From an uncultured Rhodothermaceae bacterium (GTDB taxonomy: Bacteria; Bacteroidota; Rhodothermia; Rhodothermales; JAHQVL01): DNA of 64,000 nucleotides. The position numbers and the translations under genes are program-made. Location: the NCBI GenBank assembly GCA_964525535.1, contig CAZGHT010000016.1, positions 1,834 through 65,833 of the forward strand. Direction: 5' to 3'. Positions 43,228-59,366 of the stretch are shown here, piece by piece (position 1 is the stretch's first letter; each line of letters begins with the position of its first letter). A model generated the notes under the pieces. That model saw only the letters and a program-made list of their open reading frames with translations, ran no database searches and was not told the DNA's origin.

Positions 43228-44433
43228 TCACAGCTCCATCAGTTCCAATACGTGCCGGGCTGTCTCCTGGTTGACCCGCTCCATCTCGTCACGATGAGGG
43301 ATGGGCGGCCTATGAGCCAGGTCGTCGTGGAGTTGCAGCGTGGCTCCACCGGCCAGCCTGTCCGTATGAGCCTCGATCCAGGGGGCGGGGAGAGCGTGGG
43401 GCAGGGGCCAGCCGCAGAGCAGGTGAATGAGAATGGCCCAGTTGCGGATGGCGGATGAAGGATCGTATCCACCTCCCAGGGTAAACAGGACGCGGCCGGA
43501 AGCAAATCGGTCCGCATAGTCGATGAGGAGCGCAAAGAGGCGTTGGAACCCGTGTGTCGAGAGCATCAGGTGGCCCAGCGGATCGCGGTAATGCGCGTCG
43601 ACGCCGCAAGGAATGACGAGGACGTCTGGGGCGAATTGTTCGAGCGCTTGCGGGACGACCTGCTCGAACACGCGCAGGTAGCTGGCGTCGTCCGTGTGTT
43701 GTTCCAGGGGGATGTTGATGGTCGTACCCAGGCCATTACGTTCCCCGCGTTCACCCGGGAAGCCCGTGTTCGGAAAGAGGTAGCGCCCGGACTCGTGGAT
43801 GCTGATGGCGAGCACATCGGGATCGCGGTAGTGGATCCACTGGACGCCGTCCCCATGGTGAACGTCGATGTCGATACAGGCCGGGCGAAGGCGCCGGCTG
43901 CGTAAATACATCATCGCGATAGAGAGGTCGTTGTAGATGCAGAAGCCGGCGGCGCGGGCCGGCATGGCGTGATGAAACCCGCCGCCCAGCTGCAGGACCC
44001 GGGAGGCGCGCCGGTCGGCAATCAGGCGGGCGGCTTCGAGGGTACCGCCGACCTGGAGGCGGGCAGCCCCATCCATGCCGGGGAAGAGAGGCACATCGTC
44101 GGTGTCGAGCCCGAACCGGAGCGCTCCGGGCGCCCAGATGAGGTCGGACGCCGACGCCACGGCGTGGATGTATTCTGAGGTGTGCACGGTCAGCAGGTCG
44201 TCGTCGGTAGCCGGCGACGGTTCCAGGCTGGAAAGCGGAGTGCCGAGCGCTCGAAAGAGGTCCAACAACATTTCCCTCTTCTGAGGGTTGGCCGGATGGT
44301 TCGTTCCGAAGCTGTAGGTGCTGTAGGCGGGATGATAAATGACAGGCAGGCCCGAAGGACCATTGCCGGGTACCGGAGTGGGCCGAGCGGCGGCAACGGG
44401 ACCTTCCAGATCGTGATCGGCCGTTTCAGGCAT
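43228..44433 (-). CDS. Zn-dependent histone-deacetylase-family protein (AcuC/acetoin-utilisation-type deacetylase)
   Basis: 401 aa. GGFHHAMPARAAGFCIYND, DIDVHHGDGVQ, GGGY. Confidence 0.85.
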   Translation of the reverse strand: MPETADHDLEGPVAAARPTPVPGNGPSGLPVIYHPAYSTYSFGTNHPANPQKREMLLDLFRALGTPLSSLEPSPATDDDLLTVHTSEYIHAVASASDLIWAPGALRFGLDTDDVPLFPGMDGAARLQVGGTLEAARLIADRRASRVLQLGGGFHHAMPARAAGFCIYNDLSIAMMYLRSRRLRPACIDIDVHHGDGVQWIHYRDPDVLAISIHESGRYLFPNTGFPGERGERNGLGTTINIPLEQHTDDASYLRVFEQVVPQALEQFAPDVLVIPCGVDAHYRDPLGHLMLSTHGFQRLFALLIDYADRFASGRVLFTLGGGYDPSSAIRNWAILIHLLCGWPLPHALPAPWIEAHTDRLAGGATLQLHDDLAHRPPIPHRDEMERVNQETARHVLELMEL

Positions 44434-44457: not shown

Positions 44458-47265
44458 TTACGCATGTACCTCCTGTTCAATGTCCAGCGTAGCCTGTACG
44501 ATCCCATCGTCCTGCAAGTAATTGAGCGTGAAGCCGAGCTTTTCGAATACGCGCTTCATGCCCTGGTTCTCGGGAAGGGTTTCGGCGGTGATGTGGGCCA
44601 GTCCTTCTTTTTTGCCGATTTCGACGAGGCGGCGAACCAGTTCGGTGCCGATCCCTTGCCGCTGGTACGCATCGCGCACGACGAGCGACAGCTCGGCGTC
44701 GGCCGAATCGATGAGCCGGCTTATCCGCCCGATGGCGAGGATCTCCCGGCCCTCCCCGTCTTCTCGTTCAGCTTCGACGACGAGCGCCATATCCCGGTCG
44801 TAATCGATGAAGCTGAGCCGGGCCAGCCGGCTGTGCTGGGTGCGCTGTTCGAAAGAGAGTGACTGGAAATAGCGGAAGTAGACGCTTTCTTCGGATAGGG
44901 CCGTATGCAGCTCGACCATCAGGGGTTCGTCTTCGGGCCGGATCGGCCGGATCGTGACTTCACGGCCGGAATACATGGTCCACGAACTCACATACTGCTT
45001 GGGGTACGGCCGGATGGCCGTTTTTGGCAACGCGTCCAGGGGGGTATCGATCGGGTGCAGCAGCACGCGCGCGTCCAGGGCGAGCAGGCGCTCGGAGGAA
45101 GCGAGCAAGGGGTTCATCTCGATTTCTTTGATCCAGGGATTCTCGATGACGAGAAGGCTGAAGCGGACCATCAGGCGTTCCAGCGCGTCGATGTCGACCG
45201 AGGCACGACCGCGAACGCCCTGCAGCGCTTTGTATATCTTCGTCCGCTCGATCATGCGAAGAGCCAGCGTCGTGTTGAGGGGAGGCAGGCCCAACGCCCG
45301 GTCCTGGAAGACCTCGACGAGTGAGCCGCCGGCGCCAAAGAGCAGAACGGGGCCGAACTGGGGATCCGTAGAGCTTCCGAGGATCACTTCGTACCCATCC
45401 AGGCGCTCCATGGGCTGCACCGTCACCCCGAGGAAGTGCCCTTCGCCTTTGAGATGGCGCACCTGTTCTTCCATGGTATGGTAGGCCTCCCGAACCGCCT
45501 CTTCCGACTGGAGGTTGAGCTTCACGCCGCCCACGTCCACCTTGTGGGTGATCGTGTTGGAATGGATCTTGATGACGACCGGGAATCCGAGTTCACGCGC
45601 ACGATCGACGGCTTTGTCGACGTTTTCGGCGAGGAAGGTCGGCACGGTGGGAATGCCGTAGGCAGCGAGGAGCTGCTTCGATTCGTATTCGTTCAGGAGC
45701 GTGCGGTTGGCCTTGCGGACCTGTTCGATGAGATCCGACGCATGTTTCGGGTCGGGGGATACTTCCCCCGGCACGGTAGCCAGCCCGGGTGTTTCGTAGA
45801 GCGCCTTGAGGCGATATTCGTGTTGCCACATGTAGGCGAACATGCGCGCTGCCGTGTCCGGATACTCAAACGTGGGGATGCCTTTCGTATTGAGGATGCG
45901 TATTCCGTCCTTGACGCTTTCACCGCCCATCCAACTCGCCAGTACGGGCTTCTGATAGTCGCCCGCGATGTGGCACAGCTGCCGGGCCGTTTCGGTAGGG
46001 GACGTCATGGATTGCGGGGACAGAATGACGAGCAGGCCGTCCGTGTTTTCGTCGTGCTTGAGGATGTGCAGGGAATCGGTATATCGCTCGGGGGCGGCGT
46101 CGCCGATGAGGTCGATGGGGTTGCCGTGGCTCCAGTGTTCGGGCAGCACGCCGTCGAGGGCCGTGCGGGTGTCGTCCGACAGGGTCGCCAGGTCGCCGCC
46201 GCTGGTCAGCAGCGCATCGGTGGCCAGCACGCCGGGGCCGCCGGCATTGGTTACGATGGTGAGGCGAGGGCCCTTCGTTGGGGGTTGTTTGGAGAGCACC
46301 TCGGCCATGTAGAACACGTCCGAGATCCGGTCTACCCGCAATACGCCGACGCGACGAAAGGCGGCATCGAGCACCTCGTCGCTCCCTGTCATGGAGCCGG
46401 TATGTGAGGACGCCGCCTGGGCAGCGGCTTCCGTCCTGCCGGCTTTGATTACGATGATCGGCTTACTCAAGGCGACCTCCCGGGCGGCCGACATAAAGGA
46501 GCGGGCGTCGCCGATCGATTCCATGTAGATGACGATGCTCTTCGTGGCAGGGTCGTCGCCCAGATAGTAGATCAAGTCGCCCCATCCAACGTCCAGCATG
46601 GATCCTATCGAGATAAACGAGCTGAAGCCCACGTTTTCCTGGAAGCTCCAGTCGAGGATGGAGGTGCAGAGGGCCCCGCTCTGGCTGATAAAACCGACGC
46701 TGCCGGGGCGGGCAATGTCGCTGGCGAAGGTGGCGTTGAAGCCGCTGGGCGGGTGCATGACGCCGAGGCAGTTGGGGCCGATGAGGCGTATTCGACCTTC
46801 TCTGGCGATGCGCAGGACATCCTGCTCCAGTGCAACCCCCTTTTCGCCTCGTTCTTTAAAGCCGGCTGAGATGATGATAGCGCCGTGAACGCCAACGTCG
46901 ACGCATTCTTGAATGATGCCGGGCACCGTGTGGGCCGGCGTTGCGATCACTGCCAGATCCACCTGCGCCGGTATCGCTCGCAAGGTCGGGTAGGCCTTTA
47001 TTCCGAGCACGCTCTCGCGCTTCAGGTTGACCGGATAGACCGTGCCTCCGAATGGGCTGCTGATGAGGTTGGACAAAAGGGTGCGCCCGACGCTGTCAGG
47101 CTGTTCGCTCGCGCCGATGACGGCGACATGCCGGGGTGTGAAGATGGGTTTGAGAGACCGCCTGCGCCGCCGAAGGACGTCGTGGGTAGGGTCTTTGGAC
47201 GCGAGTTCTGCTATAGAAGGGGTATTATTCGTTTCCATATACCATAGGTGTGTTTCCTCGTTCAT
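44458..47265 (-). CDS. Pat-type protein acetyltransferase: ADP-forming acyl-CoA synthetase-like (CoA-binding + ATP-grasp) N-terminal region fused to C-terminal GNAT
   Basis: 935 aa. CoA-binding block [15 protein letters not shown]...VYPVN. Succinyl-CoA-ligase-like and ATP-grasp blocks. C-terminal GNAT block [16 protein letters not shown]...[12 protein letters not shown]. An alternative ATG lies at 47238. Confidence 0.85.
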
Positions 47266-53390: not shown

Positions 53391-53455
53391 GCCGTCTTTC
53401 AATGCCGTCTTTCAATGTCGTCTTTCAATGCCGTCTTTCAATGCCGTCTTTCAAC
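53391..53455. repeat. Perfectly head-to-tail tandem repeat, 5 x 13 bp (GCCGTCTTTCAAT)
   Basis: Units at 53391, 53404, 53417 (G>T at position 2), 53430 and 53443 (last base C). The array is intergenic: 22 bp after the LamG stop and 218 bp before the helicase ATG. Confidence 0.95.
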
Positions 53456-53672: not shown

Positions 53673-56600
53673 ATGAGTACGGTTCGCACCATATTGCAGC
53701 AGAAGCGCCTTTCACTGCTCCAGAGCCTGCCCCGCAGTGCGCTTGTCACGTATCAGCCGGACTCCCGCTCAGGGGTGTCGCTCGTCCACGTGCCGGCTCA
53801 ATCAACGTTCCACGATCTTGTCATCGAAGGGAAAACCTTTCGATTCGAAGCGTCGCCATCTCGGGCTGATCCGCGCTCCACCGGCCCCGGGGATGCCGTT
53901 TCTGCGGAAGAGCCGGCTTTCTTGACGCCGTATTCGCCCAGCCAGCTGCTGAGTCGACTCATCGCGACCTATCTCCGGTCCCGAAGGTCGATGGAGGACT
54001 ATGGCGAGACCGTGCTGTACCTCACCTTTTGCACCCTCCAGGGGGGCGATTCCGATCGTACAGAGGGCGTATTGCATGCCCCTCTTTTTCTCATTCCCGT
54101 TGTTTTGTCCAGGGAGTCGGTCCGGGCCCCGATCTTGCTACGAGCTACGGGCGAGGATCCACTGCTCAATCCGGCTTTACGCGTGGTGTTATCCCGGGAC
54201 TACGGCCTGGAGCTGCCCTACTGGAGCGTCTACCAGGCCGACGGCATTTCCAGATGCCTGGAGCAGATCGAAAGCGTCATCAAAACCAAAGACGGATGGC
54301 ATGTCGATGAACGAGCCGCTTGCATAGATCTATTCGATGTGTCGACCGTGCTCAACTATCTGGATCTGGATCCAGACTATCAGGTGCGCAACGACCTTGA
54401 CAACCATCGGGTGCTTCAGGCGCTTCTGCACGAGGGATTCGATGCGACCGATCTGGACATCGAAAACGATGCGTCTATCGACATGCTGGTGGAGCCGGGA
54501 CAGCTGCCTTTCGTCATCCCGGCCAACAACGAGCAACTGCTGGCCCTCTACTCGATCAAGAAAGGAGCGGATTGCGTGATCGAGGGTCCCGGCCAAACGG
54601 GAAAAACCCAGACGCTTGCCAACCTCGTTGCGGCGGCGATGGCCGAAGAGAAGCATGTGCTCGTCCTCTCGAACAAAGTCGAGGCACTCGATGACGTGCG
54701 AGAGCGATTACACGCCACCGGCCTGGGGGCTCTGGTCCTGCCCCTGTACGGCGAGCATCTCAGCCGGCAACGGCTGCTCCGCCAGCTGCAACACATCCAT
54801 TCATTCACGGATCGTACACCGGAGGACGAATCCGTTTCTGTCGATACGCTGGTCCGACTCCGCAACAAACTGAATATCTACAACAATTCGCTGCATACCC
54901 CTATTCGGGATAGTGGGGTCTCTCCCTATGAGGCGTATTGTGAGCTGGCCGCTTTCTCGGCAGACATGGATGGACTGGCCTGTCCCTCCTACGACGGAAA
55001 AAAATTCGTCCAGTGGTCGGCGCAGCAATTCGATGCCTTCATCGAGGATGTCGCTGCGCTTCAACATCAGATCGCCAAGATCGGTGTTCCCCAGCGCCAT
55101 CCCTTCTGGGGGAGCAAGAAAACGGTCTACAATGCGGCTCTGAAGCCAGATATTCAGAAGCTGTGCCGTAGAGCAGGGGCAGCCTTGAACGCGGTGCGCA
55201 CCACGTCGGCCGAGCTGGCGCACCTGATGAACTCCAGAGCGCCGACCACCAGCGAAGACGTGATTCGGCTCGTTCGTTCGGGCAGCAGGGCGCTGGACAC
55301 CCCTGACCTTCACGGCATAGCGGTGCACAACGAAAAATGGGAGTCTTCGATGGAGGACCTCGCCGTTATTCTGGAAACCGGAGCCAGGCTGAGCGCCATA
55401 AGAAAAAAATACGAACGCATCTTGATGCCCGAAGCCTGGCACCAGGAGGTGATGCCTATACGGCAGGCATTGGTCGCCCATAGCTCCAAGTCCATGCGTT
55501 TTTTGATCGGCGAGTACCGGAAAGCGCGCGACAGGCTGGCCCGATTGTGCCGTGATGGGATGCCGGATGACCAGGCGCAACAACTGCGGCTCGTCAACAA
55601 CATCCTGGAAACGCAACGCCTCCAGAAGAGGCTGGCGCCTTACGAGCCGCTGGCTTCGGCCTTGTTTGGCCGGCAGTGGCAGGGCATAGATTCGAACTGG
55701 AGCCAGCTGGACAGGGTCTCATCCTGGCTAATTCAACTGCACCAGGACGTACAGAGCGGCGTCGTGAATGCGGACCTGCTGGACTTTCTGGTGAAGTTCC
55801 CAGACCTGGAGCGACTCAGGAGCAAGGCGGAAGGGGTCGCCAGAGATTTTAACGCGTTTCTCGAAGCCGCTCGCCGGGCTGCCAGGGCGGTGGACATGGA
55901 GGATGCATTGGAAATGTCTAAGCGCTCGTTCGGAAAGATTCCGCTCAGCAGCCTGTTGTCGTTGTTCGCACACTGGGAAAAACACGTCGATTCCTTACAG
56001 GACATCGTGGCCTTTAATGCGATGGCCGTTACCATGCGAGAGAAAAGCATGGGAGATGTGGTGCGACTGGGGATGTCCTGGTCGGAAAGTGCGCGCCACC
56101 TCACCCGATTTGTCAAGGCGGCTCGTTACACGGCATTGCTCACGGAGGCTCTTCGCACGAGAAAGGCGCTGTCCCGGTTCGATTCCGAGCTCCACGACGT
56201 AACGATTCAGCGTTACCGGGAGCTCGATGACGCCCATCTCGAAGCGATGGGGCATGAGATACAGCGTATCCAGGCCGAAGGGTTTGCCCGGAGGCGCGCG
56301 CCGTCAAAGGTGTATCATGCGCTGATCTACGAGATGGGCGAATCCCCCAAGCGGCCGCTGAGTGAACTCATGGCTGACGCCGGGCCGGCGGTGCAGCAGG
56401 TCAAACCCGTCTTTTTGATGACGCCGGCTTCTGTAGCCAGCCTGTTGAGCCAGAGCGCAATCACCTTCGATCTGGTGGTGTTCGAAGAGGCCGGCCGCCT
56501 CAGCGTAACCGACGCCCTGGGGGCGATCGCTCGCTCGTCGCAACTGGTCGCAATCGGTGATTCTAAACAGGGACTGCCTTCTCGATTCTTTGACCGGTCC

Positions 56601-57770
56601 ATCGTCCGTGACTCGAAGCCGAAAGCCTTTTCGGCCGGGGATGATAGTTTGTTGTTGACGATGAAGCAGCGGGGCGCTGCAAAGCATCACCTGACCTGGC
56701 GGGTGACGCCGGGCGCCCTGCCGCTGGTTCAGTGGGTCAACACGACCTGTTATGGAGCCCATTTATCCATCTATCCGCCTCCTTCGACGGTTTCGATGCA
56801 GGAAAGGAGCTGCCTCCACCGAATCACCGAAACCGACGAAGAAGGAAGTACGTCTCGCAACCTGTTCCTGGTGCTCATCGATGCCCTGCTCCAGCAGATG
56901 GCGGACAGGCCGGCGTGGTCCTTCGGCGTCGTCGTGCAGTCGTCGCTGGAAGTCGAAGCGGTAGAATGGGAGCTCGAGAGGAGGCGCCGGGAAGATCCGT
57001 CGAACGAGGTCTATTTGAAGCAGAGCCATGAAGAGGCGTTTTTCGTGAAAACGATCGAGCAGGCCCAGGGGGAGCGCCGCGATGTACTGTTTGTAGGGCT
57101 GCCCTTCCGGCATTTGATGGTCGAAAGGCCCGGTTCGAGGCAGCCGGCGAGGGACGCAGACGCCGTACTGAACCCCGACGAGGTGCAGCGCCAGATATGC
57201 ATTCTGGCCTGGTCCTGTAAAATGGCCTGTCACGTATATACCGATGTGACCGAAAAAGAGATGGCGCAATGGTCGCGCATCTTACCGGGGCTGGGGCTCT
57301 GGGCGAGATGCCTGAAAAGCCTGGCGGGGAGCGATCCCGTCACGCCGTCCTCCCACGATCCCTCTCCGTTCCAGAAGATGCTGGTCGATGCCCTGCGCAA
57401 GAAGGGGTATGAAACCGAGCAGCAGGTGGGTGTGTCGGGAATATTTATCGACGTTGCCGTTAAACACCCGCACCGGCCCGGAGGGTACATTCTGGGCATC
57501 GTCAGCGACGGGCCGGTTTACTGGAAAGCCCCTTCGGTCCGCGATCGCGATGTGTTGTACCCGCAACTGCTCGAGCGGAGAGGCTGGCGCATATATCGCG
57601 TCTGGAGCGTCGACTGGTCTCGAAATCCAGAGGCCGTAGTGGACCGTATCTGTGCACACATCGAAGCGCTCCTCGATGCTGAGGGCAGCGAGGAGGACGT
57701 CCATGCGGCCGTGGCCTCCACGGCAATCCATGCGCCGGGCGTGTTATCTGCAGCAAAACAGCGCGAATAA
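53673..57770 (+). CDS. DUF4011 + Upf1/Dna2-like SF1 helicase (AAA_11/AAA_12) + C-terminal restriction-endonuclease-like (DUF559/Vsr-like) domain protein
   Basis: 1365 aa. DUF4011-like N-terminus (GETVLYLTFCTLQG...HAPLFLIPVVLSRE...NPALRVVL). Walker A GPGQTGKT (nt 54585-54608). Motif-II-like DLVVFEEA (56469-56492). GDSKQGLPSRFF; QGERRD. C-terminal block GIFIDVAVKHP...GIVSDG...RDRDVLYPQLLERRGWRIYRVWSVDW. Confidence 0.8.
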   Translation: MSTVRTILQQKRLSLLQSLPRSALVTYQPDSRSGVSLVHVPAQSTFHDLVIEGKTFRFEASPSRADPRSTGPGDAVSAEEPAFLTPYSPSQLLSRLIATYLRSRRSMEDYGETVLYLTFCTLQGGDSDRTEGVLHAPLFLIPVVLSRESVRAPILLRATGEDPLLNPALRVVLSRDYGLELPYWSVYQADGISRCLEQIESVIKTKDGWHVDERAACIDLFDVSTVLNYLDLDPDYQVRNDLDNHRVLQALLHEGFDATDLDIENDASIDMLVEPGQLPFVIPANNEQLLALYSIKKGADCVIEGPGQTGKTQTLANLVAAAMAEEKHVLVLSNKVEALDDVRERLHATGLGALVLPLYGEHLSRQRLLRQLQHIHSFTDRTPEDESVSVDTLVRLRNKLNIYNNSLHTPIRDSGVSPYEAYCELAAFSADMDGLACPSYDGKKFVQWSAQQFDAFIEDVAALQHQIAKIGVPQRHPFWGSKKTVYNAALKPDIQKLCRRAGAALNAVRTTSAELAHLMNSRAPTTSEDVIRLVRSGSRALDTPDLHGIAVHNEKWESSMEDLAVILETGARLSAIRKKYERILMPEAWHQEVMPIRQALVAHSSKSMRFLIGEYRKARDRLARLCRDGMPDDQAQQLRLVNNILETQRLQKRLAPYEPLASALFGRQWQGIDSNWSQLDRVSSWLIQLHQDVQSGVVNADLLDFLVKFPDLERLRSKAEGVARDFNAFLEAARRAARAVDMEDALEMSKRSFGKIPLSSLLSLFAHWEKHVDSLQDIVAFNAMAVTMREKSMGDVVRLGMSWSESARHLTRFVKAARYTALLTEALRTRKALSRFDSELHDVTIQRYRELDDAHLEAMGHEIQRIQAEGFARRRAPSKVYHALIYEMGESPKRPLSELMADAGPAVQQVKPVFLMTPASVASLLSQSAITFDLVVFEEAGRLSVTDALGAIARSSQLVAIGDSKQGLPSRFFDRSIVRDSKPKAFSAGDDSLLLTMKQRGAAKHHLTWRVTPGALPLVQWVNTTCYGAHLSIYPPPSTVSMQERSCLHRITETDEEGSTSRNLFLVLIDALLQQMADRPAWSFGVVVQSSLEVEAVEWELERRRREDPSNEVYLKQSHEEAFFVKTIEQAQGERRDVLFVGLPFRHLMVERPGSRQPARDADAVLNPDEVQRQICILAWSCKMACHVYTDVTEKEMAQWSRILPGLGLWARCLKSLAGSDPVTPSSHDPSPFQKMLVDALRKKGYETEQQVGVSGIFIDVAVKHPHRPGGYILGIVSDGPVYWKAPSVRDRDVLYPQLLERRGWRIYRVWSVDWSRNPEAVVDRICAHIEALLDAEGSEEDVHAAVASTAIHAPGVLSAAKQRE

Positions 57771-57854
57771 CGGCAAGCCCCCCTTGCCATCCTGACGCTT
57801 TATGTGTATAGTATGTCACACCTGTCTCGATGGCCGCAATTTCTCGATACCCGC

Positions 57855-59366
57855 ATGGACACCTCTATGAACATTCTGCCGTTGTTGATTGGATTGCTGA
57901 TCGGGGGCGGCCTCGTCTTTTTTTTCATGCGGGCGCGTATTGCCTCGCATCTCGCTACGTTGAAAGAGCGGCTCGACAATAAGACGTTCGAGATGGAGCG
58001 GCAGGAGCGAGAGCTGGAAGAAAGTAAAGGGACGATCGCATATTTGAACGAAGAAAAAGAAGCTCTCGTCCAATATTACACGGCGGCAAAGGCAAACCTG
58101 GCTTCGCAGGAAAAAAGGGTCGCCGTCCTGGTCGAAGAGGTCGCTTCGATGCGCCAGGCTGCTATCCAGGCGCAGGATCGGATCACCCGACTCATGAGCG
58201 AGGTCGCCGTTCGACAAACACAGCTGGATGAAGAACGGAAAGCGACGCAGGTGCAGGCGAAGCTGCTGGAGGAAGCCCGGCAGACCCTTTCGGATACGTT
58301 CAAGGCGTTGTCTGCGGAAGCCTTGCAGCAGAACAACGCGGCTTTTACGGCGATGGCCCGACAAACGATGGAACAGGTGTACCAGCGTGCCGACGCCGTG
58401 CTGGACAAGCGGCAGCAAGCGATTGGCGAGCTGGTCAAACCGCTCAACGTATCGCTGGATAAGGTCTCTGATCGCATCTCAGATCTGGAAAAGGCTCGCG
58501 TTATGGCGTACACTTCGCTGTCGGAGCAGGTATCCGGGATGGCCCGGGCTCAGGCGCAGTTGCAGCGCGAGGCCGGCAACCTCGTCAAAGCGCTACGCCA
58601 GCCCACCGTTCGCGGGCGATGGGGGGAGATGCAGCTGCGAAAGGTGGTCGAACTTGCCGGCATGGTCGAACACTGCGACTTTGCCGAACAGGTGGCCGTC
58701 CACTCGGCCCGGGGCCTCTTGCGGCCCGACCTCGTCGTGCATTTGCCGAACGACAAACACGTCATCGTAGATGCGAAGGCGCCTCTGCAAGCGTATCTGG
58801 ACGCCATCGAAATGGAGGACGACCGCGAGGCGGAGGAAAAACTCAAAGAACATGCCTCTCAGGTCAAGAATCATCTTCGCCTGCTCGGCCAGAAATCCTA
58901 TCACGTCGAGTTTGAGGGGGCTCCGGAGTTTGTGGTGCTCTTCCTGCCGGGAGAGATGTTCTTCAGCGCGGCGCTCCAGCAAGACGCTGCGCTCCTGGAA
59001 GAAGGCGTCAAACAAGGCGTTATCCTGGCTACACCTACGACCCTCATTGCGCTCTTGAGAGCGGTTGCTTACGGATGGCGGCACGAACAGATTGCCCGGC
59101 ACGCCCTCGACATCAGCAAGCTGGGTAACGAGCTTTACGACAGGCTACGTACGATGGCCGGCCATTTCGAGGACCTGAAAAAGGGGCTCGACAGAGCCGT
59201 CGCCAGCTATAACAGCGCCGTAGGTTCTCTGGAGTCGAGGGTGCTGGTTTCCGCGCGAAAATTCCAGGACCTGGGCGCCGCCTCGAGCGATACCATTCAG
59301 ACGCTCGAAGACATCGAACGGGCCGTTCGTTCCTTGCATGCGCCTGAGTGGTTCGATTCCGAATGA
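57855..59366 (+). CDS. rmuC: DNA recombination protein RmuC
   Basis: N-terminal TM segment ([18 protein letters not shown]), long coiled coil, then the RmuC core [23 protein letters not shown]...[22 protein letters not shown]...FVVLFLPGE. The start is ATG 57855 or 57867. Confidence 0.88.

What the first reader, a model, noticed from the sequence alone, without database searches (positions are those of the whole stretch)
53673..57770. HheA-like DUF4011 helicase-nuclease fusion whose helicase and nuclease catalytic motifs look eroded
Seen: the architecture is a DUF4011-like N-terminus, an Upf1/Dna2-type SF1 core and a C-terminal REase-like domain. As I recall, this is the architecture of the single-gene anti-phage system Hhe (DUF4011 helicase + Vsr-like endonuclease) from the 2020 Gao et al. 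defence-gene survey. That recollection needs verification. Walker A is intact (GPGQTGKT). The positions I remember as conserved in this family are altered. Motif II is DLVVFEEAGR where DEAxQ is expected. Motif III is GDSKQGLPSRFF where GDxKQLPP is expected. The (H/Q)YR(S/M) block reads LTWRVTPG. The motif-VI region, expected as RRLNVAxTRA, reads QRQICILAWSCKMA. The nuclease 'IExDG' block reads IVSDG (nt 57498-57512). Inference: this may be a catalytically decayed or repurposed paralogue, for example a sensor or scaffold rather than an active helicase-nuclease. That would be unusual for this family.
Basis: partly seen in the sequence, partly recalled or inferred. Interest (0 to 1): 0.65.

Follow-up and report, generated by a model that had tools for sequence, protein, structure and literature searches.

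The report
Motor-dead helicase-nuclease kept as core gene
This intact 1365-residue gene descends from a family of anti-phage helicase-nuclease enzymes, but it and all its Rhodothermales orthologues have lost most catalytic residues of both the motor and the nuclease while staying under strong purifying selection at a fixed chromosomal site, so it looks like an enzyme turned into a non-catalytic DNA-binding scaffold or sensor.

Summary
ORF 53673-57770 (+) encodes DUF4011, an Upf1/Dna2-type SF1 core and an MTES_1575 nuclease fold.

Alignments show the erosion is real and shared by the whole clade. The 17 Rhodothermales orthologues (41-53% identity) keep only 13-18 of 26 key helicase residues. 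In 97 of 102 other relatives, 25-26 are kept. None of the 17 keeps the motif V Glu, the motif VI Asn or Arg, or the nuclease Glu.

It is not a pseudogene:
- All 11 sequenced loci have intact ORFs despite saturated synonymous divergence.
- Omega is 0.045 for the closest pair.
- AlphaFold folds the 2A and nuclease domains confidently.

Constraint has moved from the 2A motor domain to the all-alpha middle insert. The gene sits in conserved synteny, directly upstream of rmuC in 10 of 11 loci.

The closest family is ProA/PDC-S37, not Hhe, and the protein fails the curated cut-offs of both.

The most likely function is a nucleotide-binding, non-translocating scaffold or sensor, analogous to RecC or AddB. 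Loss of activity is inferred from sequence and has not been shown. I rate it a new variant of a known kind, of moderate interest.

The parts
53673..57770 (+). Complete gene, 1365 aa plus stop. It is a degenerate DUF4011 / SF1B helicase-like / MTES_1575 nuclease-like protein.
   Evidence: ORF; Pfam; PDC-S37, 911 bits over the full length; identical protein P0001 plus 16 full-length orthologues.
53718..54191 (+). DUF4011 N-terminal domain (aa 16-173).
   Evidence: E 7e-20. The domain is matched in 17/17 clade members.
54513..54722 (+). First part of RecA-like domain 1A (aa 281-350). It carries the Q-motif Gln288, Walker A 305-312 (GPGQTGKT, nt 54585-54608) and motif Ia.
   Evidence: Q288 is kept in 17/17, K311 in 16/17 (Ala in P0003) and G310/T312 in 17/17. 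G308Q is unique to the query.
54723..56372 (+). All-alpha middle insertion (aa 351-900) between motifs Ia and II. It is the best-conserved part within the clade.
   Evidence: identity 0.59 in the clade, 0.26 in canonical relatives. (92 positions conserved only in the clade). (AF2 pLDDT 88.7, all helices). (no PDB fold match, best E 0.04).
56469..56498 (+). Motif II / Walker B region, DLVVFEEAGR (aa 933-942). The canonical sequence is DLVIFDEASQ.
   Evidence: D938E is found in the query only. E939 is E in 11/17 and D in 6/17. Q942 is replaced by R in 15/17 clade members and is Q in 101/102 other relatives.
56556..56591 (+). Motif III remnant, GDSKQGLPSRFF (aa 962-973). The canonical sequence is GDxxQLPPTxFF.
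   Evidence: G962 and D963 are kept in 17/17. Q966 is kept in 8/17. The LPP part is lost.
56673..57317 (+). RecA-like domain 2A (aa 1001-1215). The fold is retained but the catalytic motifs are eroded: IV LTWRVTPG (nt 56691-56714), V QAQGERRDV (nt 57060-57086), VI QRQICILAWSCKMA (nt 57186-57227).
   Evidence: IV Arg 7/17; V Glu 0/17; VI Asn 0/17; VI TRA-Arg 0/17. (AAA_12 matched in only 3/17). (37 of 51 canonical-invariant positions are variable). (pLDDT mostly 85-92). (omega 0.031).
57369..57662 (+). MTES_1575 (Vsr/DUF559-like PD-(D/E)xK) nuclease fold (aa 1233-1330). It lacks the conserved Glu and His: IVSDGPVYW at nt 57498-57524 against canonical IECDGATYH.
   Evidence: E 6e-28. (Glu 0/17, His 1/17; D1260 14/17; D1279, R1290, R1292, R1309 and W1311 17/17). 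(pLDDT 87-97). (omega 0.035).
57804..59366 (+). Downstream neighbour rmuC, encoding an N-terminal TM segment, a coiled coil and an RmuC nuclease domain with an intact PD...DAK motif. It is a possible functional partner, but the association rests on synteny only.
   Evidence: RmuC, E 1e-99. (directly downstream in 10 of 11 clade loci and in none of the canonical sister loci). (divergence correlated with the target, r 0.86). (sequence).

Best explanation
This gene is a Rhodothermales-specific, vertically inherited descendant of the ProA/PDC-S37 branch of DUF4011 helicase-nucleases, which is sister to Hhe.

Shown:
- The lineage lost the C-terminal DUF3320 domain.
- It lost most residues that couple ATP hydrolysis to translocation: the motif II Gln, the motif III LPP, the motif IV Tyr-Arg, the motif V Glu, and the motif VI Asn and Arg finger.
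- It lost the Glu and His of the nuclease site.
- It kept all three folds, the domain 1A nucleotide pocket (Q-motif, P-loop, acidic Walker B pair) and many DNA-fold framework residues.
- It is under strong purifying selection.
- Constraint has shifted from the 2A motor domain to the all-alpha middle insertion.

Inferred:
- The protein no longer works as a translocating helicase-nuclease.
- It works instead as a nucleotide-binding, DNA-binding scaffold or sensor.
- This would resemble RecC and AddB, which are catalytically inactivated helicase(-nuclease) folds serving as recognition subunits.
- Any DNA cleavage would be supplied by another protein. The adjacent RmuC is the obvious but unproven candidate.
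For: - Family placement. PDC-S37 gives 911 bits, colinear over profile positions 2-1354 of 1550. ProA gives 715 bits against 474 for Hhe. True members score about 1580 (ProA) and about 2000 (PDC-S37) bits. The middle-domain motif HPFWGS(R/K)K is shared with canonical ProA-type proteins from five other phyla.
- Erosion. The motif table compares 17 clade members with 102 other relatives. Clade members keep 13-18 of 26 key residues, against 25-26 in other relatives. Among 148 further 50%-identity representatives, 140-147 have each canonical helicase motif. AAA_12 is matched by only 3/17 clade members.
- Not decay. Ten CDS are intact at saturated dS. Omega is 0.045 overall and 0.03-0.095 per domain. 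The AF2 model has pLDDT 87.9 with 2A and the nuclease well folded. The fold is Upf1/Dna2-like.
- Shift of constraint. Within the clade, identity is 0.59 in the middle and 0.37 in 2A. In canonical relatives it is 0.26 and 0.57. In 2A, clade-to-ProA-type identity is 0.24, while ProA-type-to-more-distant-canonical identity is 0.41. In 2A, 37 of 51 canonical-invariant positions are variable in the clade.
- Vertical inheritance. The order NIPSNAP / 3-keto-disaccharide hydrolase / LamG / target / RmuC / Rieske-GltS is conserved. Target and RmuC divergence are correlated. GC content is unremarkable.
- ATP use not strictly required. P0003 has Walker A Lys replaced by Ala, and 6/17 members have DD in Walker B.
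- Established knowledge (my own). In SF1 helicases the motif IV and motif VI arginines (PcrA R287/R610; Upf1 R703/R865) contact the gamma-phosphate and are needed for ATPase activity. RecC and AddB are inactivated SF1 folds.
Against: - No biochemical data exist. Inactivity is inferred from residue identity alone.
- Walker A, the acidic Walker B pair, the Q-motif, GD of motif III, QG..RD of motif V and one Arg of motif VI (13/17) persist. Residual ATPase activity, or hydrolysis in a complex, cannot be excluded.
- A newly fixed Arg942 (15/17) next to Walker B could compensate for lost arginines.
- In Vsr the position equivalent to the lost nuclease Glu is a Thr that uses its backbone carbonyl (my recollection). 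Loss of the Glu therefore does not strictly prove a dead nuclease.
- The link to RmuC rests on synteny inside a block that is conserved as a whole. Gaps to rmuC are 33-471 nt, a promoter-like site lies between the genes, and one lineage (L005) has Sir2 downstream instead.
- The clade is known only from MAGs. It forms 17 clusters at 90% identity and 2 at 50%.
Confidence: 0.6

Rival explanations
1. The protein is still an active, merely divergent ATPase/helicase. It could even be an active single-gene anti-phage system of the ProA/PDC-S37/Hhe kind, whose motifs have drifted while function is kept through compensating residues such as Arg942 and the basic residue at 1183.
For: - The Walker A Lys is kept in 16/17, the acidic Walker B pair in 17/17, the Q-motif Gln in 17/17, GD in 17/17, QG..RD in 15-17/17 and the first motif VI Arg in 13/17.
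- Purifying selection on 2A is strong (omega 0.031).
- PADLOC's PDC-S37 model matches the full length.
- The fold is intact.
Against: - The motif V Glu, the motif VI Asn and the Arg finger are kept in 0/17. The motif IV Arg is kept in 7/17 and is absent in the query.
- Former catalytic positions are variable across the clade rather than switched to one new residue. In 2A, 37 are variable and 1 is switched. Compensation would not produce this pattern.
- P0003 lacks the P-loop Lys.
- The protein is below both curated cut-offs.
- The gene has a fixed core-like location and no defence genes around it.
Confidence: 0.22
2. The gene forms a two-gene module with RmuC. The degenerate helicase-nuclease would be the DNA-recognising, non-catalytic subunit, and RmuC (with an intact PD..DxK site) would be the nuclease. 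The module would act in recombination or repair, or as a domesticated defence system.
For: - rmuC lies immediately downstream on the same strand in 10 of 11 clade loci, and in none of the canonical sister loci.
- Divergence of the two genes is correlated.
- RmuC domains are used as effectors in Shield (PMC10270631, listed) and in RT-associated systems (PADLOC RTasRmuC hit).
- The target has lost its own nuclease Glu and His.
Against: - The whole neighbourhood is syntenic, so adjacency may carry no functional meaning.
- Intergenic gaps of 33-471 nt and a promoter-like site argue against tight co-translation.
- L005 lacks RmuC downstream.
- RmuC here looks like the ordinary housekeeping type and is much more conserved (65-96% against 40-92% identity).
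- No interaction evidence exists.
Confidence: 0.2
3. The gene is a pseudogene or a strain-specific decaying copy of a defence gene.
For: The catalytic motifs of both enzymatic domains are degraded, and the query is the most eroded member at 13/26 key residues.
Against: - Eleven independent lineages carry intact ORFs of 1352-1365 aa with saturated synonymous divergence.
- Omega is 0.045.
- The AF2 model is of high confidence.
- 92 clade-specific conserved positions lie in the middle domain.
Confidence: 0.02

Closest known systems
ProA (NCBIfam NF058533, 'anti-phage protein ProA') = PADLOC candidate system PDC-S37
   Same: - The domain order is colinear: DUF4011, 1A, long all-alpha insert, 1A/2A, MTES_1575.
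- It is the best profile match (PDC-S37 911 bits, ProA 715 bits).
- Middle-domain motifs such as HPFWGS(R/K)K are shared.
   Different: - The score is about half that of true members and below the curated cut-off (715 against 1500).
- The DUF3320 C-terminal domain is absent.
- Helicase motifs II(Q), III(LPP), IV, V(E) and VI, and the nuclease Glu and His, are lost.
- The gene occupies a fixed syntenic position next to rmuC, not the varied contexts of the canonical proteins.
- I found no paper describing ProA or PDC-S37.
Hhe
   Same: The domain families are the same (DUF4011, Upf1-like SF1 core, MTES_1575). The homology is recognisable (312-474 bits).
   Different: - Only the C-terminal half aligns.
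- The score is 474 against a cut-off of 2000. A true Hhe (P0031) scores 2123.
- The catalytic motifs are lost.
- The protein is about 450-550 residues shorter.
RecC of RecBCD and AddB of AddAB (inactivated SF1 helicase / nuclease folds used as recognition scaffolds; my own knowledge)
   Same: This is the proposed working analogy. The helicase and nuclease folds are retained, the motor motifs are degenerate, the protein is under selection, and (in AddB) a P-loop is retained without motor activity.
   Different: - They are a different SF1 subfamily (SF1A UvrD-like, against SF1B Upf1-like here), so the origin is independent.
- No partner motor subunit or recognition sequence is known for the present protein.
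- The analogy is not tested here.
Upf1 / Dna2 / IGHMBP2 / Senataxin (SF1B Upf1-like helicases)
   Same: These are the best structural matches of the AF2 model (Foldseek E 4.5e-9 to 1e-7). The profile also matches Dna2 over motifs II-IV.
   Different: - Those enzymes keep all of motifs I-VI.
- They lack DUF4011, the 550-residue all-alpha insert and the MTES_1575 domain.
Core DUF4011 gene flanking defence hotspot cDHS1 in Pseudomonas aeruginosa (PMC10250203, read)
   Same: It is a large DUF4011 gene that is conserved and core rather than mobile. This shows that DUF4011 proteins are not always accessory defence genes.
   Different: It is in a different phylum. Its motif status was not examined here, and it has no reported association with rmuC.

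Membership tests
Hhe (NCBIfam NF042953 / PADLOC Hhe) | Whole-protein score at or above the curated equivalog cut-off (2000 bits) | tested here: not met
   The query scores 473.6 bits and only residues 712-1339 align. The control P0031 reaches 2122.8 bits.
Hhe (NCBIfam NF042953 / PADLOC Hhe) | DUF4011 N-terminal domain | tested here: met
   Pfam DUF4011, residues 16-173, E 6.7e-20.
Hhe (NCBIfam NF042953 / PADLOC Hhe) | Complete SF1 helicase core (AAA_11 + AAA_12) with motifs I-VI | tested here: not met
   AAA_11 matches only residues 285-348 and there is no AAA_12 hit. The query keeps 13 of 26 key residues.
Hhe (NCBIfam NF042953 / PADLOC Hhe) | C-terminal Vsr-like / MTES_1575 nuclease domain | tested here: met
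   The fold and profile are met (E 5.8e-28; pLDDT about 90). The conserved Glu and His are absent.
Hhe (NCBIfam NF042953 / PADLOC Hhe) | Confers anti-phage protection as a single gene | not testable with these tools
   This needs a phage challenge of the cloned gene.
ProA (NCBIfam NF058533) / PDC-S37 (PADLOC) | Whole-protein score at or above the curated cut-off (1500 bits) | tested here: not met
   The query scores 715.4 bits. Clade member P0018 scores 729. Canonical P0127 scores 1580.7 and P0124 scores 1588.5.
ProA (NCBIfam NF058533) / PDC-S37 (PADLOC) | Colinear full-length match to the family profile | tested here: met
   PDC-S37: residues 2-1347 match profile positions 2-1354 of 1550, at 911 bits. 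True members score 1876-2046 bits.
ProA (NCBIfam NF058533) / PDC-S37 (PADLOC) | C-terminal DUF3320 domain | tested here: not met
   There is no PF11784 hit and the protein ends about 25 residues after the nuclease domain. A few canonical relatives of about 1350 aa also lack it.
ProA (NCBIfam NF058533) / PDC-S37 (PADLOC) | Canonical helicase motifs (present in 140-147 of 148 representatives) | tested here: not met
SF1B Upf1-like helicase fold | Two RecA-like domains with Upf1/Dna2-type topology | tested here: met
   Foldseek against PDB finds Upf1 8rd3 (E 4.5e-9), Dna2 5eaw (E 1.1e-8) and IGHMBP2 4b3g. The model has pLDDT 87.9.
SF1B Upf1-like helicase fold | ATP-dependent translocation or unwinding | not testable with these tools
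   Sequence argues against it, because the motif IV Arg, the motif V Glu and the motif VI Arg are absent in the query. An enzyme assay is needed.
Inactivated helicase-nuclease scaffold (RecC/AddB-type, functional analogy only) | Helicase and nuclease folds retained, catalytic residues lost, gene under purifying selection | tested here: met
Inactivated helicase-nuclease scaffold (RecC/AddB-type, functional analogy only) | Works in a complex with a catalytically active partner | tested here: inconclusive
   The only evidence is conserved adjacency to rmuC, in 10 of 11 loci. The operon and interaction status are unknown.

The most novel reading that the evidence does not exclude
A former single-gene anti-phage helicase-nuclease (ProA/PDC-S37 type) was domesticated in an ancestor of a Rhodothermales lineage into a core, catalytically inert DNA-structure sensor. 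Its conserved all-alpha middle domain and nucleotide-bound 1A domain would recruit or license the neighbouring RmuC nuclease. That would give RmuC, whose mechanism is still poorly understood, a dedicated targeting subunit.
Probability: 0.15. Interest if true: 0.65.

Novelty: new variant of a known kind. Interest (0 to 1): 0.45.

Why it matters
DUF4011 helicase-nucleases (Hhe, ProA/PDC-S37) are annotated automatically as anti-phage systems. PADLOC-type profile searches would probably label this gene PDC-S37.

This clade shows that a full-length profile hit can hide a protein with most motor residues and the nuclease acid/His residues gone. The protein behaves like a vertically inherited core gene, not an accessory defence gene.

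It is a clean natural example of constraint moving from the catalytic domains to an accessory insert. That marks the insert as the place to look for the family's recognition function. It may also be a second, independent RecC/AddB-like 'dead helicase-nuclease', this time in the SF1B lineage.

If the link to RmuC is real, it would offer a handle on RmuC biology.

Tried and rejected
- **Pseudogenisation.** Rejected on intact ORFs in 11 lineages and omega 0.045.
- **By-eye misalignment.** Rejected, because three independent MAFFT alignments (33, 119 and 142 sequences) give the same columns, and the Pfam AAA_12 profile fails on the query and on 14 of 17 clade members.
- **Membership in Hhe.** Rejected on curated cut-offs, with controls.
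- **Defence-island context.** The neighbours are NIPSNAP, 3-keto-disaccharide hydrolase, LamG, RmuC and Rieske/GltS. None has a PADLOC hit except the RmuC homology.
- **Literature on ProA, PDC-S37 and DUF3320.** Nothing usable was found.
- **Enlarging the clade.**
  - The GTDB genome scan gave 3 Rhodothermales loci.
  - The JGI metagenome scan gave 1 more.
  - The exhaustive search of 1.84 billion representatives found only 2 clusters at 50% identity. The clade is therefore genuinely narrow.
- **dN/dS across the whole clade.** Synonymous sites are saturated in 44 of 45 pairs, so only the closest pair is informative.
- **Sigma-70 promoter and terminator scan.** The number of sites found was not clearly above shuffled expectation, and the consensus probably does not apply to this phylum.

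Full report
**1. The observation**

The window carries one uninterrupted ORF at 53673-57770 (+) of 1365 codons. Pfam finds three things in it:
- DUF4011, residues 16-173, E 7e-20.
- The first third of AAA_11, residues 285-348. This is the Walker A side of RecA-like domain 1A.
- MTES_1575, residues 1233-1330, E 6e-28.

The profile for the second helicase domain (AAA_12) does not match, even at E<=1.

IVSDG lies at nt 57498-57512. The start codon is supported by orthologues that align from Met1. The architecture and the raw observation are therefore correct.

**2. Are the motifs really eroded, or was the by-eye alignment wrong?**

I collected homologues and aligned the query with its 16 closest full-length relatives and with canonical relatives.

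| Position | 102 other DUF4011 relatives | 17-member clade |
|---|---|---|
| Walker A Lys | 102/102 | 16/17 (Ala in P0003) |
| Walker B D-E | 102/102 | D 16/17 (Glu in the query); second position E 11/17, D 6/17 |
| Motif II Gln | 101/102 | 1/17 (Arg in 15/17) |
| Motif III Q | 102/102 | 8/17 |
| Motif III first Pro (968) | 101/102 | 1/17 |
| Motif III second Pro (969) | 102/102 | 10/17 |
| Motif IV Tyr | 101/102 | 8/17 |
| Motif IV Arg | 101/102 | 7/17 |
| Motif V Glu | 98/102 | 0/17 |
| Motif VI first Arg | 89/102 | 13/17 |
| Motif VI Asn | 98/102 | 0/17 |
| Motif VI TRA Arg | 99/102 | 0/17 |

- Clade members keep 13-18 of 26 key helicase residues, and the query keeps 13.
- 97 of 102 other relatives keep 25-26.
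- Among 148 further 50%-identity representatives, 140-147 carry each canonical helicase motif.
- AAA_12 is detected in only 3 of the 17 clade members.

In the nuclease domain the first Asp is kept in 14/17. D1279, R1290, R1292, R1309 and W1311 are kept in 17/17. The Glu of IExDG is 0/17 and the His of YH is 1/17.

It is not met.

- The query also has G308Q inside the P-loop and D938E in Walker B. Both are unique to it.
- Motif V has lost its Glu.

One correction: loss of the nuclease Glu and His is common in the wider family. Only 32/102 other relatives keep the Glu and 24/102 keep the His. A large Actinomyces group lacks both. The helicase erosion is the rare feature.

**3. Decay or function?**

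I fetched DNA for ten orthologous loci, and an eleventh came from the metagenome scan.
- All ORFs are intact and 1352-1365 aa long.
- Synonymous sites are saturated in 44 of 45 pairs.
- The one unsaturated pair (P0006 and L004, 92% identical) gives dN 0.038, dS 0.85 and omega 0.045.
- By region, omega is 0.031 for domain 2A, 0.035 for the nuclease domain, 0.035 for the middle insert and 0.095 for DUF4011.

AlphaFold2 on residues 250-1365, with a 58-sequence alignment, gives mean pLDDT 87.9 and pTM 0.74. The 2A and nuclease domains are confidently folded. Foldseek places the model with Upf1, Dna2, IGHMBP2, Aquarius and Senataxin.

The second refutation criterion was frameshifts and relaxed selection in close homologues. 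It is not met either. The protein is maintained, but not for the chemistry its ancestors performed.

**4. Where the constraint went**

Mean pairwise identity by region:

| Region | Rhodothermales clade | Canonical DUF3320-type relatives |
|---|---|---|
| Middle insert (351-900) | 0.59 (highest) | 0.26 (lowest) |
| Domain 2A | 0.37 (lowest) | 0.57 |
| Domain 1A, N-terminal part | 0.58 | 0.67 (highest) |

- In 2A, clade-to-ProA-type identity is 0.24. ProA-type-to-more-distant-canonical identity is 0.41. In DUF4011 and the insert, the clade is closest to the ProA type. This indicates accelerated divergence of 2A on the clade's lineage.
- Of 51 positions in 2A that are >=90% conserved in 125 canonical proteins, 37 are variable in the clade, 13 are kept and 1 is switched.
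- The insert holds 92 positions conserved only in the clade. Part of that reflects the clade's shallower depth.
- The former catalytic positions are variable, not replaced by one new residue. This argues for lost constraint rather than compensation. The exception is motif II Gln942 replaced by Arg in 15/17.
- The insert is all-alpha (pLDDT 88.7) and has no match among solved structures.

**5. What family it belongs to**

- PADLOC's best model is PDC-S37, at 911 bits over profile positions 2-1354 of 1550. Its Hhe model matches only the C-terminal half, at 312 bits.
- NCBIfam gives ProA 715 bits (cut-off 1500) and Hhe 474 bits (cut-off 2000).
- Controls: canonical sisters P0127 and P0124 pass ProA (1581 and 1589 bits) and score about 2000 bits on PDC-S37. 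P0031 passes Hhe (2123 bits). Clade member P0018 behaves like the query.
- The gene is therefore a divergent offshoot of the ProA/PDC-S37 branch. It lacks the DUF3320 tail and is not a member of Hhe or ProA by their curators' criteria.
- Canonical ProA-type proteins from Solibacteraceae, Oligoflexales, Cohnella, Bacillus alkalicola, SAR202 and Alphaproteobacteria share the insert motif HPFWGS(R/K)K and have perfect catalytic motifs.
- In an exhaustive search of 1.84 billion representatives the family is large, with 5199 hits at E<=1e-30. The degenerate clade accounts for only two 50% clusters, followed by a gap from 1008 to 652 bits.
- Sporadic, partial erosions occur elsewhere. P0217 has FDQAGR and a nuclease Glu replaced by Asn, and P0143 is also partly eroded.
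- I found no paper on ProA or PDC-S37.

**6. Genomic context**

In the window and in nine other Rhodothermales loci the gene order is the same:

NIPSNAP <- 3-keto-disaccharide hydrolase <- (CBM9-like) <- | LamG -> target -> RmuC -> (GH10) | <- Rieske/GltS

- rmuC lies directly downstream on the same strand in 10 of 11 clade loci. L005 has Sir2 instead.
- rmuC is downstream in none of the canonical sister loci.
- Pairwise identities of the target (0.40-0.92) and of RmuC (0.65-0.96) are correlated, with r = 0.86 over 36 non-independent pairs.
- GC content is uniform across the region.
- No neighbour hits a defence model except through RmuC homology to RT-associated RmuC.

This is the signature of a vertically inherited, core-like gene, not of an accessory defence island. 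A core DUF4011 gene has also been noted in Pseudomonas aeruginosa (PMC10250203).

Whether the target and rmuC form an operon is open. Gaps are 33-471 nt, and a sigma-70-like site lies in the window's gap.

**7. Mechanism**

Shown:
- The folds are retained.
- The 1A nucleotide pocket is mostly retained.
- The 2A gamma-phosphate sensors and the nuclease Glu and His are lost.
- Purifying selection is strong.
- Constraint has shifted to the insert.
- Synteny is fixed.

From established SF1 enzymology (my own knowledge):
- PcrA R287 and R610, and Upf1 Y702/R703 and R865, contact the nucleotide and its gamma-phosphate.
- Loss of the motif IV and motif VI arginines and of the motif III/V couplers should abolish or uncouple ATP hydrolysis.

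Inferred:
- The protein binds nucleotide and DNA but does not translocate or cut.
- It acts as a scaffold or sensor, as RecC and AddB do within RecBCD and AddAB.

RmuC has an intact PD...DAK motif (sequence). RmuC domains serve as effectors in the Shield defence system (PMC10270631). RmuC is therefore a candidate catalytic partner.

| Reading | My estimate |
|---|---|
| Non-motor scaffold/sensor | about 0.6 |
| Still an active enzyme | about 0.2 |
| RmuC partnership (a sub-case of the scaffold reading) | about 0.2 |
| Pseudogene | <0.02 |

**8. Verdict**

It is a new variant of a known kind: a domesticated, catalytically eroded ProA/PDC-S37-type protein. Precedent for dead helicase-nuclease scaffolds exists in RecC and AddB. 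No mechanism is proven, and the clade is narrow and known only from MAGs. Interest is moderate.

Noticed in passing
window 53391-53455: There is a perfect-register tandem array of 4.9 copies of a 13-bp unit, GCCGTCTTTCAAT. It lies just after the stop of the LamG ORF and about 220 bp upstream of the target's start codon. The window holds 5 matches against 0.09 expected by chance.
   Followed up: partly
P0003 (locus L012 6001-10086): One clade orthologue has the Walker A lysine replaced by alanine (GAGAT in place of GTGKT) in an otherwise intact, syntenic gene. This suggests that even nucleotide binding is dispensable in part of the clade.
   Followed up: partly
P0217 and P0143 (representatives): Independent partial erosions occur elsewhere in the ProA-type family. 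P0217 has Walker B FDQAGR, an E-to-Q 'trap'-like change with the same AGR as the clade, and its nuclease Glu is replaced by Asn. P0143 has QADARD, DRYLNV and IASDT.
   Followed up: partly
Relatives P0054-P0112 (about 1745-aa Actinomyces-type DUF4011 proteins): A large, well-sampled branch has fully canonical helicase motifs but lacks the nuclease Glu and His (for example IMDSKRW). Nuclease-site loss with an intact motor is therefore common in DUF4011 proteins.
   Followed up: no
window 57784-57812: A sigma-70-like promoter match (TTGCCA-17-TATAGT, 10/12) lies in the 33-nt gap between the target's stop codon and the annotated GTG start of rmuC. The true rmuC start may be a downstream Met ([11 protein letters not shown]...).
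   Followed up: no
locus L005 5413-6231: In the one clade locus without rmuC downstream (P0013 lineage), the downstream gene encodes a 272-aa Sir2-family protein.
   Followed up: no
window 44458-47265 (-): There is a 935-aa ORF. From its sequence, and from the homologous gene in L012 (CoA_binding, Succ_CoA_lig, ATP-grasp_5 and Acetyltransf domains), it looks like an ADP-forming acyl-CoA synthetase fused to a GNAT acetyltransferase. It sits next to a histone-deacetylase-like ORF at 43228-44433.
   Followed up: no
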